This document shows, piece by piece, positions 3,001 through 6,000 of a DNA stretch of 64,000 nucleotides. This stretch comes from Escherichia coli O127:H6 str. E2348/69 (GTDB lineage: Bacteria; Pseudomonadota; Gammaproteobacteria; Enterobacterales; Enterobacteriaceae): the NCBI RefSeq assembly GCF_000026545.1, contig NC_011601.1; one strand, written 5' to 3'. The first letter of the stretch is position 1. Each line of letters begins with the position of its first letter. A program made the position numbers.

Positions 3001-6000
3001 CGAAGCAATATACCAGCCGCCCGGAGAACGCCACGAATACAGGATGAATGACGGTAGCGCGGTGGTTGAGTTCCCCGGATATCCGGGGGCTTCCCGGTGG
3101 CGGTTCTATGACAGTGTGGGACGTCGGATTATTAAAAGAACCGTGCACAACAATATGAAGGCTGCCGTAGAACGTCATAAGAGAAGGTTTAACTGCAAAT
3201 GAAAATTGAATTTTATGACCATGGGGTCACCGCAACTATCACTATTTCTTGTTGGTTCTGGGAGTTCCACCGTTACTTCAGAGTTGTAGATGCTGCGCTG
3301 TTTGTTGCACCGGGAGCGTTACATCACAGTGGAATCGGTATTGTTATGAACACTGTCATCAGCGGTAAAACGGTCCCGATGTTGCGGGCGTTTAAAGTGG
3401 CAAAACAGGAGGCTGGCAATGGTCATTGATAAAACGATAACGATAGATGTAGCCATGAATACAGGTCTGGCGCTTATCGGTTATGGCTATATCACTTTTA
3501 TGTCATTCAGGTGGTTGATTTCTTCGCTCTTTAAGCAGCGTGAAAAACATCGTTGTAAAGACAAGCGCGCGAAGGCGCTAAATGCGTTTAATGACGCTTT
3601 TGATATTGACCATATGCAACAGGGCGACCCCGCACGCGTAATTACCCGGGGAGATATTGTAATTCTTGTGTACCGGAATGAAAAAAATGAACAGGAGACA
3701 ACCAGTGAGTCAGCAAACCAGAATAAGCGATAAGAGTCTGACCAGACTGATTGCCGATGCGGACAAGGTGCTGGAGCGGAACTCCCCCGTTGCCGATGAG
3801 GAATGGTGGCAGGATTTCCGGGCTGCAATGCTGGAACTTCAGGAACGTCGTCGGGAGGTGTTGAAGTGAGTGAATTAAAGTGTCGAATTAATGGCAATCA
3901 GATAGAACCGTGTGCGGTACTGGCAAAAGCACTCGAATATGGAAATCCAGCCTTTAAGAGTAAAGGCATATTTATCCCGGAACGCGTGAATATAAACACC
4001 GGCGAGCCAGGCTTAGACATTGCTCAAATTCACTCCGGCCAATATGTCGGTCGTGGTGTTGCCATGTGTTTTTGCCCGTTCTGTGGTGAAAGTCTGAAAA
4101 CATGGAAAAAGGAGGCAACCAGTGAGCGAGATTAACTATCAGGCACTGCGTGAGGTGGCAGAGGCCGCGAAGGGGGATACGACGTGGCAGAACCTACAGG
4201 CTTTTCATGCTGCGGCTACGCCGGAGGTTGTGCAGGCGTTGCTGGATGAAAACGAAAGACTGTGTCGCGATCTGATAGCTCGTAATGGTGAGATTGAAGG
4301 GCTTCGGGAGTGGGCAGAAGAACTGGAGGCACGGGAGGTGGCTTTGCCAGTAGCGTCATGCATTGTTGAAGATGGATGCATGTGTGTTGATGGGTTCAGT
4401 GAGTATGTAGGTCACTCGCTACCTGATGGAATGCATGAGCTTTATGCTGCCCCGCCAGCGTCGGTAGTGCCGGAAGGACTAGTTAAAGCAGTGCGTTTCT
4501 ATGAACAGGTAAAGTGTGAGAATCCGCCAGTCGAAACCGGAGCATGGAAAGACGCGGTTGACTGGGTACTCAACGAGGCTTGCCAGGCTGTAAATATTGA
4601 CGCCAAAGGAGGTGCGTAATGCGTGTAGCGTTTATCGGTTTATTACCATACCCGACTCGTTTTTGGGCTTCTGCGCTAATTGCAAAGCCACATGCCCTGA
4701 TGGCTGACAGCATCATCCCGGCACAAAAGCGCCATACCGGTATTGCTGCTGCACGACGCGAAGCAAAGAAACGCAGGAGAGCAAAATGATGAAAAACCGT
4801 AAGGCAAGACTGCTGATAGCAAAGCCAGGGCAACTTATCCGTATCTCAAATCGACTTGTTGTTCACTATAGATATCTTGGTTTTAGGGAGTGGTCCTCTA
4901 TTCGTTTTTACGGTGTCTGGCGAAACAGAAGCGCGACACAAAACCGCTGGAAGAATCACACTAACGCAAAGTAATTAAATAATAACCAATAGCAGACCAA
5001 AAAGTATTTTTTGGTCTGCCAAAAGTGATGTTTTGGTCATTATGAAGATTGAACAAATCGGAATGGCAGCTTTCAGGCAACAGGCTGAAAGCGGTGGCGT
5101 GGATGAGTTCGTCGTGCAGCGGTTCGGTGGTGTGTATCATCTATTCGCTGTGAATCGCCGCGCCGGGGTGTCCTATTTTCTACAGGAACGTCGTGGCGAT
5201 TACAAGACATGGCTGTCTCTTGACCGTGCCGCTGCGTTCTTGTCAGGGATTGGCGTTTCACGTTTTACCGTGCGTTTTGAGGATAACAAACATGCTGAAA
5301 AAGATGATCGGGGCCATTAAAGCCGGTCAGGCGTATCTGGGGTGGGATGATGCCCTTTATCGCCAGACGCTGGCCCGCCTGACCGGTAAAACCAGCACCA
5401 CACGCTGCAATCTCGATGAACTGCGCATCATCCGGGAATACATGCACGAACAGGGATTCCCGCGCAAGGCACCCGCTGGTAAAGGTCGCCGCCCTCGTGT
5501 TGCAATGAGCAGAAAATCAGTATTATCCAAAATTGAAGCGTTGCTGGCTGATGCCGGTCGTTCCTGGGCGTATGCAGAAGGACTGGCATCTCACATGTAT
5601 AAGCAACATGTGATCGAATGGCTGACGGATGAACAGCTTTTTGGAGTGATGGTGGCGCTGGTTAAAGATTCAAGAAGGAGAAATCAATGATGAAAAAATG
5701 GTTGTTTTGTTTAGTAGGGGTTATTTTCTCTTGTTCTGTGCTGGCACAGACAGAGGAACAGGCGCAAAAGGAACTGAAACGTTATCAGGATATGAAGCCA
5801 TTGGCTGAACAGATGCTTCGGGAAAGTGGAAAACTTTATTACGCTATGCCAGAAGCTGCATCGCAGTATCAGCAGGGAAATATTGAAGAGTGGAAGAATA
5901 TCAAAAAAGGACTAAAACAACTGGATGAACAGGCCAGTAAACTGGGGGACGACCCGCTTGATCCTGTGTATGGTTCCTGCATAAAAATGAAAAACCAGCT

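What the first reader, a model, noticed from the sequence alone, without database searches (positions are those of the whole stretch)
4786..5040. Low-complexity, lower-G+C block ending in a perfect 12-bp palindrome inside the early region
The only ORF here (4786..4974) translates to implausible protein, and the block ends with a perfect inverted repeat gcagaccaaaaa-gtat-tttttggtctgc at about 4992-5019. This could be a structured RNA, a protein-binding operator or a terminator-like element separating two early sub-operons. There is no trailing T-run.
Basis: seen in the sequence. Interest (0 to 1): 0.35.

Follow-up and report, generated by a model that had tools for sequence, protein, structure and literature searches.

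The report
Conserved double palindrome before gemA block
The palindrome is real and is half of a conserved 42-bp double inverted repeat just upstream of a small gene in a Mu-like prophage of E. coli; it is most likely a binding or control site for the last early genes, not a terminator, and its partner protein is unknown.

Summary
The window is a Mu-like prophage of EPEC E2348/69. The 12-bp palindrome at 4992-5019 is real, with no T-run after it.

The ORF 4786-4974 is not junk. It belongs to phage family phrog_1380, is annotated in relatives, and is intact in phage HEMP4.

The element occurs in 57 of 5426 complete E. coli genomes. It always travels with the downstream gene, behind at least four different upstream genes. 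Among 24 haplotypes the arms vary as little as non-synonymous sites (4/30 columns), while the 6-bp centres vary like neutral sites (8/12; third codon positions 51/92).

Distant relatives keep ACCAA/TTGGT half-sites and exact N10-N2-N10 spacing, but lose self-complementarity and predicted RNA stability.

My best reading (about 0.4) is an operator-type protein-recognition array that controls the distal early block. The main rival (about 0.27) is an mRNA hairpin that controls translation. No promoter, binding protein or Rfam family was found. A canonical terminator lies at 6174-6200. This is ordinary to moderately interesting.

The parts
4786..4974 (+). Small accessory gene (62 aa, basic) of phage family phrog_1380. 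It is a mosaic module shared with other phages and is not part of the palindromic element.
   Evidence: The phrog_1380 match is E = 3.8e-10 over positions 1-60 of 62. PGAP annotates homologues in relatives, e.g. WP_071940939.1, WP_129541855.1 and WP_073521071.1. An intact homologue sits in phage HEMP4 and is followed there by a different gene with no palindrome. Its start overlaps the stop of the upstream ORF (ATGA at 4786-4789).
4975..4991 (+). A-rich, semi-conserved leader in front of the palindromes. It contains a -10-like nATAAT and an AACCAA that can pair with TTGGT near the start codon.
   Evidence: BLAST similarity to relatives with a different upstream gene begins at about 4974-4979 (sequences). 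The weak sigma70-like match ATCACA-17-AATAAT lies at 4955-4983. The minimum-energy fold pairs 4979-4989 with 5033-5043.
4992..5019 (.). The core 20-bp dyad site 1 is ACCAA-N10-TTGGT at 4996-5015.
   Evidence: Across 24 haplotypes the arms are invariant except 4996 and 5019, while the centre 5003-5008 is variable.
5018..5037 (.). Palindrome 2, dyad site 2: GCCAA-N10-TTGGT. It lies 22 bp downstream of site 1 and ends 4 nt before ATG 5042, so it overlaps the weak ribosome-binding site.
   Evidence: Direct-repeat family D1 and inverted repeat I2. One mismatch to the ACCAAAA-N6-TTTTGGT pattern. It folds at -6.3 kcal/mol on its own. The arms are invariant and the centre 5025-5028 is variable.
4996..5037 (.). 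The whole 42-bp array, with four half-sites in the order -> <- -> <- : [ACCAA-N10-TTGGT]-N2-[ACCAA-N10-TTGGT].
   Evidence: A sliding template finds the array at the same register in all distant relatives, with 15-20 of 20 matches and p <= 0.0005 against shuffles. Half-site positions are 81% identical and spacer positions 37% identical.
5042..5320 (+). Conserved 92-aa gene (phrog_7844, WP_000687850.1) that always follows the array. Its fold resembles ribosomal protein eL38. Its 3' end overlaps gemA.
5292..5690 (+). GemA / gp16-family gene.
   Evidence: Pfam PF06252 GemA at 1.5e-18. PGAP names it 'gp16 family protein'.
5687..6163 (+). 158-aa ORF with a signal-peptide-like N-terminus; the last gene before the terminator.
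   Evidence: WP_000976762.1. No family hit.
6174..6200 (+). Canonical intrinsic terminator (AGCCCCTGC-CAT-GCAGGGGCT followed by T7). This is the real end of this transcription unit.
   Evidence: I7. It is followed by the best sigma70-like match in the first 9 kb, at 6207-6234, upstream of the Mor-family gene.

Best explanation
The palindrome is one half of a 42-bp dyad-symmetric array of four ACCAA-type half-sites. The array forms two 20-bp inverted-repeat sites with a 22-bp period, about two helical turns. It is the upstream control element of the distal early block of this Mu-like prophage: the 92-aa gene, gemA and the 158-aa gene, ending at the terminator at 6174-6200.

I propose that it is an operator-type site recognised sequence-specifically by a dimer-of-dimers protein on the DNA. 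Occupancy would gate transcription into the distal block. It could do this as a roadblock to the early transcript, or by controlling a weak internal promoter in the AT-rich leader. The latter would be analogous to the separately expressed gem operon reported for Mu.

Because the repeats are also transcribed, they must fold into hairpins in the early mRNA that bury the weak ribosome-binding site and start codon of the 92-aa gene.

Shown: the anatomy, the conservation, purifying selection on the arms, and fixed spacing. Inferred: that a protein binds, that it acts on DNA, and the direction of the effect. The binding protein is not identified.
For: 1. There are two near-identical palindromes 22 bp apart, ending 4 nt before ATG 5042.
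2. The element is in 57 of 5426 E. coli genomes. It always sits with the downstream gene, behind at least four different upstream neighbours.
3. In 24 haplotypes, variable columns number 4/30 in the arms, 8/12 in the centres and 51/92 at third codon positions (Fisher p = 4e-5 and 1.3e-3). The arms are as constrained as codon positions 1 and 2, and the A-U pairs never drift to G-U.
4. Six distant relatives (62-76% protein identity) keep the array at the same register with 15-20 of 20 half-site matches. Half-sites are 81% identical and spacers 37% identical (p about 1e-12). Spacing N10-N2-N10 has no indel in any lineage, while the gap to the ATG varies from 1 to 9 nt.
5. In those relatives the spacers are mostly not self-complementary (3-6 of 8 pairs). 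Predicted RNA stability is ordinary (z from +1.1 to -1.6). What is conserved is half-site sequence and geometry, not a hairpin.
6. Coding does not explain the invariance. Only 3 of 12 in-frame third positions vary, and 5 of the 8 variable sites fall on first or second positions.
7. A precedent exists for a separately expressed gem unit in Mu. [quoted passage not shown]
Against: - No convincing promoter lies at a conserved position in any haplotype; the best scores are 5.8-8.5 bits and their positions differ.
- The motif occurs nowhere else in the 64-kb window, so there is no regulon to point to a binder.
- No candidate binding protein was identified. The adjacent 92-aa protein has an eL38-like fold, not a helix-turn-helix or ribbon-helix-helix fold.
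- In Leminorella-type relatives the array lies inside the 3' end of the upstream ORF, only about 15 nt from the next start. That is an odd place for a promoter-linked operator.
- Its position over the ribosome-binding site is what a translational element would have.
- Sequence invariance could also arise if four arms must stay mutually complementary in alternative RNA folds.
- The distant relatives are not independent samples.
Confidence: 0.4

Rival explanations
1. The element is purely RNA-level. In the early polycistronic mRNA the repeats fold into hairpins, either 1:2 plus 3:4 or the nested 1:4 plus 2:3. These sequester the weak Shine-Dalgarno region and the AUG of the 92-aa gene, setting or regulating its translation. 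A sequence-specific RNA-binding factor might be involved, as when Com opens the mom translation-inhibition stem in Mu. Alternatively the hairpins serve as a processing or stability determinant, such as an RNase III site or an exonuclease barrier.
For: - The fold is very stable in the E. coli clade: -23 to -25 kcal/mol, z -4.1 to -4.7; hairpin 1 alone is -17.1.
- The array always ends 1-9 nt before the start codon and overlaps the Shine-Dalgarno region.
- The E. coli clade has lost the GGA Shine-Dalgarno motif that the distant relatives keep.
- The few stem changes at 4993, 4996 and 5019 are G-U compatible on the + strand.
- At 5003:5008 there is one A-U to C-G double change, and L082 has two symmetric changes in site 1.
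Against: - Covariation is not significant; 54-150 of 500 shuffles reach the observed values. RNAalifold finds no compensatory pair.
- A-U pairs in the core never become G-U, although 55% of neutral sites vary.
- Distant relatives have no unusual stability and poor complementarity. G-U versus A-C mismatches are 9 versus 3, p = 0.15.
- Loop length is never altered, although loop sequence is free.
- Both alternative folds keep the ribosome-binding site buried, so there is no obvious switch.
- No Rfam family matches; the best E-value is 0.58, far below gathering scores.
Confidence: 0.27
2. The element acts on the minus strand. The hairpin plus the U-rich tail (UAUUGGUUAUUAUUU) terminates a leftward transcript. 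That transcript could be a short antisense RNA starting near the CATAAT formed by the start-codon region, which would pair with the ribosome-binding site of the 92-aa gene, as sar RNA does in P22.
For: - The consensus scan flags a terminator-like site on the minus strand, 5021 to 4990, with 14 pairs and tail TTGGTTATTA.
- The minus-strand hairpin folds at -18.7 kcal/mol.
- The stretch 4975-4991 stays A-rich on the + strand in all upstream module types.
- There is a weak minus-strand promoter match, CTGCCA-19-CATAAT.
Against: - The tail is interrupted and is not a U-run.
- The promoter match is poor (7.3 bits, 19-nt spacer).
- The three stem substitutions seen in relatives would be A-C mismatches in a minus-strand RNA.
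- All annotated genes here are on the + strand.
- This reading does not explain the second palindrome or the fixed spacing.
Confidence: 0.07
3. The element is an intrinsic terminator or attenuator on the + strand that splits the early operon.
For: There is a stable hairpin directly after the stop codon of the upstream gene.
Against: - No U-tract follows either hairpin.
- The scan reports no + strand terminator here.
- The phage uses canonical GC-rich terminators with T-runs elsewhere, at 6174-6200 and 6699-6724.
- The upstream gene is interchangeable and HEMP4 lacks the palindrome after it.
Confidence: 0.03
4. The element is a recombination or architectural DNA site. Palindrome 1 has 11-bp arms around a 6-bp centre, the geometry of a tyrosine-recombinase core site. 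Alternatively it is a cruciform-prone, A-tract-phased structural site, or the junction at which mosaic modules are exchanged.
For: - In most haplotypes the geometry is 11-6-11 (GCAGACCAAAA-CATATG-TTTTGGTCTGC).
- The element sits exactly where upstream modules differ.
- The centres differ between lineages while the arms do not.
Against: - No recombinase gene is nearby.
- Similarity decays gradually upstream of 4992 rather than breaking at the palindrome.
- The arms do not resemble dif, lox or gix (from memory, not tested).
- Nothing in this reading explains why the element overlaps the ribosome-binding site.
Confidence: 0.05

Closest known systems
Tandem dyad operators of temperate phages (e.g. 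434 or lambda OR1-OR2; the two Ner sites of Mu). This comparison rests on my own knowledge.
   Same: The sites are inverted repeats with conserved outer bases and sequence-free central base pairs of fixed length. Two sites lie about two helical turns apart, which suits cooperative binding of two dimers.
   Different: No adjacent promoter could be identified, no cognate repressor is known, and the sites are not repeated elsewhere in the prophage. The array sits inside an operon and over a ribosome-binding site. The half-site centres are 15 bp apart, which is unusual for helix-turn-helix dimers.
Translational operator hairpins, especially the Mu com-mom translation-inhibition stem opened by Com, and also the MS2 coat-protein operator. 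This comparison rests on my own knowledge.
   Same: A hairpin occludes the start region of a gene in a polycistronic phage mRNA, and the Mu example comes from a Mu-type phage. The adjacent protein has the fold of an RNA-binding ribosomal protein.
   Different: There is no covariation. The loops are variable and the stems are sequence-invariant, which is the reverse of MS2-type recognition. The structure is not conserved in distant relatives. No Com homologue is implicated.
Rho-independent terminators
   Same: Both have a stable stem-loop just after a stop codon.
   Different: The inner stem is A/U-rich and there is no U-tract on the + strand. A canonical terminator of the same operon lies at 6174-6200.
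GntR/FadR-subfamily operators (TKGT-N2-3-ACMA, PMC4494728)
   Same: The central dyad of the array, TTGGT-N2-ACCAA, fits TKGT-N2-ACMA exactly in relatives L082, L057 and L060.
   Different: In the E. coli clade the right box is an invariant GCCA, not ACCA. The outer half-sites lie 18 bp from the centre, not the 7-12 bp reported for accessory boxes. No GntR-family gene was seen in the early region. This is a lead only.
RNase III processing sites in phage early mRNAs (T7, lambda). This comparison rests on my own knowledge.
   Same: Both are intercistronic stem-loops in a long early transcript. The predicted outer helix plus hairpin 1 give about 22 stacked pairs with an asymmetric internal loop.
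   Different: The outer helix is poorly conserved, and cleavage cannot be tested here.

Membership tests
Intrinsic (Rho-independent) terminator, + strand | A G+C-rich stem-loop immediately followed by a U-tract. | tested here: not met
   The stem has 5 G-C pairs out of 12 and its inner half is all A-U. The downstream sequence is CAAAAGTGATG. The scan reports nothing on the + strand.
Intrinsic terminator, minus strand | A stem-loop followed by a U-tract on the minus strand, with a transcript to terminate. | tested here: inconclusive
   The scan flags 5021 to 4990 with tail TTGGTTATTA, 5 T in 8. The U-run is interrupted, there is no minus-strand gene, and the stem variants are A-C on this strand.
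Any Rfam RNA family | A covariance-model score at or above the gathering threshold. | tested here: not met
   The best matches are 21.4 bits against a 48.4 gathering score (E = 0.58) and 20 bits against 70.
Conserved structured RNA (generic) | Base pairs maintained by compensatory changes, with stability conserved in homologues. | tested here: not met
   There is one double change. Covariation measures are reached by 54-150 of 500 shuffles. RNAalifold finds 0 compensatory pairs. Distant homologues have z from +1.1 to -1.6.
Tandem dyad operator (protein-binding DNA site) | Dyad symmetry, with conserved half-sites and a spacer of fixed length but free sequence. | tested here: met
   Variable columns are 4/30 in the arms and 8/12 in the centres. 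Half-sites are 81% identical and spacers 37%. No lineage has an indel inside the array.
Tandem dyad operator (protein-binding DNA site) | Placement at or next to a promoter that it controls. | tested here: inconclusive
   Only weak, non-conserved sigma70-like matches were found. A -10-like nATAAT persists at 4978-4986 in all module types, but no -35 element does.
Tandem dyad operator (protein-binding DNA site) | A cognate DNA-binding protein. | not testable with these tools
   The motif is unique in the window. The neighbouring protein does not have a classical DNA-binding fold.
Mor/C-dependent Mu middle or late promoter | A dyad element centred at about -43.5, upstream of a -10 hexamer (PMC4287176). 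| tested here: not met
   Site 1 is centred at 5005.5, so a transcription start 43 bp downstream would fall inside the 92-aa gene. No matching dyad was found at the late-gene intergenic regions.
GntR/FadR-type operator | TKGT and ACMA boxes separated by 2-3 nt (PMC4494728). | tested here: inconclusive
   The feature is met by the central dyad of L082, L057 and L060. The window and the whole E. coli clade have TGGT-CT-GCCA.
N-terminal coding extension of the 92-aa gene (the 104-aa PGAP call in some relatives) | A conserved in-frame start codon and a codon-like substitution pattern. | tested here: not met
   The in-frame codon at 5006 is ATG or GTG in 19 of 24 haplotypes. It is ATT here and GTT or GTA in others. 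Only 3 of 12 third positions vary, and most variable sites fall on codon positions 1 or 2.

The most novel reading that the evidence does not exclude
The array and the gene behind it form a self-contained autoregulatory module. The 92-aa protein has the fold of the rRNA-binding ribosomal protein eL38 and no described family. It would itself recognise the ACCAA/UUGGU dyads that overlap its own ribosome-binding site, either as RNA hairpins or as DNA. This would make it a new kind of phage nucleic-acid-binding regulator that times expression of gemA and the approach to the Mor switch.
Probability: 0.12. Interest if true: 0.55.

Novelty: new member of a known kind. Interest (0 to 1): 0.3.

Why it matters
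Regulation inside the semi-essential early region of Mu-type phages is poorly mapped, and the gem genes remain uncharacterised at the molecular level (PMC12407980 says so). Here a cis element is shown to be under purifying selection. It sits at the head of the gemA block and travels with it through mosaic exchange. That gives a concrete, mutable handle on how these prophages control their last early genes and, indirectly, the step before the Mor-dependent late switch. For annotation, it also corrects two things. A small conserved gene (phrog_1380) was left unannotated in E2348/69. The 104-aa start call for the downstream gene in many genomes is probably an artefact of an ATG that lies in the centre of the palindrome.

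Tried and rejected
- Rfam scan at a permissive threshold: only noise.
- Comparison with phage Mu itself. Mu gp14 is unrelated and Mu has a different intergenic region before gemA, so the element is not a general Mu feature.
- tblastn of the 92-aa protein against 50,697 phage records: no match.
- Scans for more relatives. The genome-contig scan gave 1 locus. The metagenome-contig scan gave only near-identical copies. The A2 alignment was too diverse to seed a scan.
- Pattern scan of viral contigs. It gave 16 homologous loci plus unrelated chance hits. One 67% GC contig carries about 20 copies of a similar palindrome but has no homologue of the 92-aa protein; I judged this a coincidence.
- Remote homologues of the protein (31-41% identity; L084-L086) do not carry the array, so deep protein-site co-evolution is not supported.
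- Promoter search by consensus scan and by position weight matrix on all haplotypes and both strands: nothing consistent.
- Covariation tests on two alternative structures and with RNAalifold: not significant.
- G-U versus A-C strand-asymmetry test: 9 versus 3, not significant.
- Function of the 92-aa protein. There is no Pfam hit and no PDB sequence hit. An NCBIfam ParC match is far below cut-off (17 bits against 95), and IncP-9 ParC itself has no known function.
- Looked for the motif in the prophage's repressor/ner operator region and left end. Only single GACCAAAA half-sites occur there; the operator region has its own different palindrome, GGATAACAC-GGCG-GTGTTATCC.
- The idea that the ORF 4786-4974 is a frameshifted remnant: rejected. 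Its alleles truly differ in the middle and each is intact.
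Full report
**Where the window comes from**

The window matches E. coli O127:H6 E2348/69 at 100% identity. The annotated record shows a Mu-like prophage inserted in eutC. Its early genes run rightwards: repressor (leftward), a Ner-like helix-turn-helix protein, Mu-type transposase, an AAA ATPase, a DUF3164 protein, a string of small accessory genes, an ead/Ea22-like gene, a 56-aa gene, an unannotated gap, a 92-aa hypothetical gene, a gp16/GemA-family gene, a 158-aa gene, a Mor-family activator, and then holins, endolysin and terminase. The finding lies in the unannotated gap at window 4790-5041.

**Checking the observation**

The palindrome GCAGACCAAAAA-GTAT-TTTTTGGTCTGC sits at exactly 4992-5019, and no T-run follows it. 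GC falls to 0.37-0.41 around it.

It is far beyond chance.
- Perfect stems of >=12 bp with short loops occur at four places in the window, against 0.02 per dinucleotide shuffle.
- The core pattern is expected 0.01 times.

- The ORF 4786-4974 is a real small gene. It matches phrog_1380 end to end (E = 3.8e-10). NCBI's annotation pipeline (PGAP) annotates it in relatives. It is intact at 90.7% nucleotide identity in phage HEMP4, where a different gene follows directly and there is no palindrome. The family has three alleles with conserved termini and unrelated middles.
- The palindrome is not alone. CCAAAAGTGATGTTTTGGTC (5019-5038) is an 80% copy of CCAAAAAGTATTTTTTGGTC (4997-5016), offset by 22 bp. 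It ends 3-4 nt before ATG 5042 of the 92-aa gene.

**Distribution and linkage**

A 101-bp probe finds the element in 57 of 5426 complete E. coli genomes, always in this kind of prophage. I fetched twelve of these loci, plus viral and metagenomic copies.

The gene upstream of the element differs among them. It can be the phrog_1380 gene, a 61-aa gene, an 83-aa gene, or a 136-aa gene with a 155-nt gap. Similarity resumes at about 4975 and continues through the palindromes into the 92-aa gene.

**Selection on the arms**

Among 24 distinct haplotypes there are no indels anywhere in 4992-5041.
- Variable columns number 4 of 30 in the arms, 8 of 12 in the two 6-bp centres, and 51 of 92 at third codon positions of the downstream gene.
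- First and second codon positions vary in 14 and 8 of 92 columns.
- Fisher tests give p = 4e-5 for arms against third positions and 1.3e-3 for arms against centres.

The arms are thus as constrained as non-synonymous sites, and the centres evolve freely.

Coding does not explain this. Some genomes carry a 104-aa call that starts at an ATG in the centre of palindrome 1. That codon is ATT in the window and GTT or GTA in others. In-frame third positions across the arms hardly vary, and most variable sites are at first or second positions.

**RNA structure or sequence-specific site?**

As RNA, the region folds strongly in the E. coli clade.
- The 84-91-nt region folds at -23 to -25 kcal/mol, with z -4.1 to -4.7.
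- Hairpin 1 alone is -17.1 kcal/mol.
- The ribosome-binding site and start codon are buried in every favoured fold.

Covariation support is absent.
- Only one pair shows a double change.
- All measures are reached by 54-150 of 500 shuffles.
- RNAalifold prefers a different, nested pairing (arm 1 with arm 4, arm 2 with arm 3) and finds no compensatory pair.
- The A-U pairs of the core never become G-U.

The distant relatives are more telling. They share 62-76% protein identity and come from Leminorella, Intestinirhabdus and four metagenomic prophages.
- An unbiased sliding template, [ACCAA-N10-TTGGT]-N2-[ACCAA-N10-TTGGT], finds its best match at the same place in every one of them.
- The matches score 15-20 of 20, with p <= 0.0005 against shuffles.
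- Half-site positions are 81% identical to the E. coli consensus, and the 22 intervening positions only 37%.
- The internal spacing never changes, while the gap to the ATG ranges from 1 to 9 nt.
- Yet the spacers are mostly not self-complementary (3-6 of 8 pairs).
- Predicted stability is ordinary (z +1.1 to -1.6).
- G-U versus A-C mismatches show no significant strand bias (9 versus 3).

What the family conserves is therefore four short half-sites at a rigid geometry. It does not conserve a hairpin. This is the signature of a protein-recognition array. The long perfect palindromes are a feature of the E. coli clade only.

**What argues against a simple operator**

- I could not find a promoter. 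Consensus and weight-matrix scans give only weak matches, and their positions change with the upstream module. A -10-like nATAAT does persist at 4978-4986.
- The motif is unique in the window.
- The prophage's own operator region uses a different palindrome.
- The 92-aa protein has no Pfam, PDB-sequence or meaningful NCBIfam match.
- Remote homologues of this protein lack the array.
- The position over the ribosome-binding site, and inside the end of the upstream ORF in the Leminorella-type phages, is what a translational element would have.

**Terminator reading**

The + strand shows no terminator features here. The operon has a canonical terminator at 6174-6194 followed by T7. It is followed in turn by the best promoter-like match in the first 9 kb, just upstream of the Mor-family gene. 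The scan does flag the hairpin as terminator-like on the minus strand. However, the tail is interrupted, nothing is known to be transcribed leftwards, and the natural stem variants would be mismatches on that strand.

**Verdict**

The feature is a real, conserved and selected cis element: a 42-bp double dyad at the head of the 92-aa/gemA/158-aa distal early block.

My probabilities for how it works are:
- about 0.4 that it is an operator-type protein-binding array on DNA that gates transcription into the block. A weak internal promoter would be analogous to the separately expressed gem operon reported for Mu, known here only from titles in reference lists;
- about 0.27 that it works purely as mRNA structure controlling translation or processing;
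- small probabilities for a minus-strand terminator or antisense RNA, a + strand terminator, or a recombination or architectural site.

In any reading, the transcribed repeats must fold and occlude the start of the 92-aa gene. The binding protein is unknown, and the mechanism steps are inferred, not shown.

The element is an uncharacterised member of a familiar kind (a phage cis-regulatory inverted repeat), restricted to a small prophage clade. Interest is modest, at 0.3. The liveliest possibility is that the eL38-fold protein recognises the array in front of its own gene.

Noticed in passing
window 6174-6234: A canonical intrinsic terminator (AGCCCCTGC-CAT-GCAGGGGCT followed by T7) lies right after the 158-aa ORF. 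It is followed by the best sigma70-like match in the first 9 kb (TGTACA-16-TATAAT, 6207-6234), just upstream of the Mor-family gene at 6264. In this phage the Mor-type activator therefore looks like its own transcription unit rather than the last early gene.
   Followed up: partly
window 6699-6724: A perfect 12-bp hairpin, AAAAGCCCCACC-CA-GGTGGGGCTTTT, lies inside the 3' end of the Mor-family gene. It has an A-run before it and a T-run after it, so it looks like a bidirectional terminator.
   Followed up: no
window 7140-7172: The dyad GCAAAAG-G-CTTTTGT is followed by a perfect TTGACA hexamer, upstream of the holin genes. It may be the activator site of the first late promoter.
   Followed up: no
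window 26680-26709, 34766-34796, 45659-45686, 15154-15178: Other perfect inverted repeats of 11-13 bp with short loops occur elsewhere in the window, far more than shuffles give. They were not examined.
   Followed up: no
window 4786-4974 and homologues in L002-L005, L022, L029, L034, L094: The phrog_1380 small basic protein exists in three allelic forms of equal length. The N-terminus (MKNRKAK..) and C-terminus (..QNRWKNHTNAK) are conserved, and the middles are unrelated apart from an (I/L)SNR(R/L) core. The gene is unannotated in the E2348/69 RefSeq record.
   Followed up: partly
L041-L049 (IMGVR_UViG_3300035661_000038, 82 kb, 67% GC): An unrelated high-GC viral contig carries about 20 copies of the 22-bp palindrome GACCAAAA(A/G)G(C/T)GC(C/T)TTTTGGTC, often extended by CGAC/GTCG. 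It looks like a genome-wide repeated regulatory or terminator motif. It shares its arms with the E. coli element only by coincidence, and the contig has no homologue of the 92-aa protein.
   Followed up: partly
L053 5150-5300 and 6109-6290 (left end and immunity region of the same prophage, outside the window): The prophage interrupts eutC. The left end carries three TTCTGGGCGGA-type repeats, which are probably transposase sites. The repressor/ner intergenic region has a perfect 9-bp-arm palindrome, GGATAACAC-GGCG-GTGTTATCC, and inverted CCATATA repeats.
   Followed up: no
L054/L055 (Leminorella grimontii CP146357.1): Two copies of a related Mu-like prophage sit in one genome. Each has an HNH endonuclease gene inserted between the 92-aa-family gene and gemA.
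   Followed up: no
L059, L062: In two genomes the 92-aa gene carries frameshifts, so these are pseudogene copies, yet the double palindrome upstream is intact.
   Followed up: no
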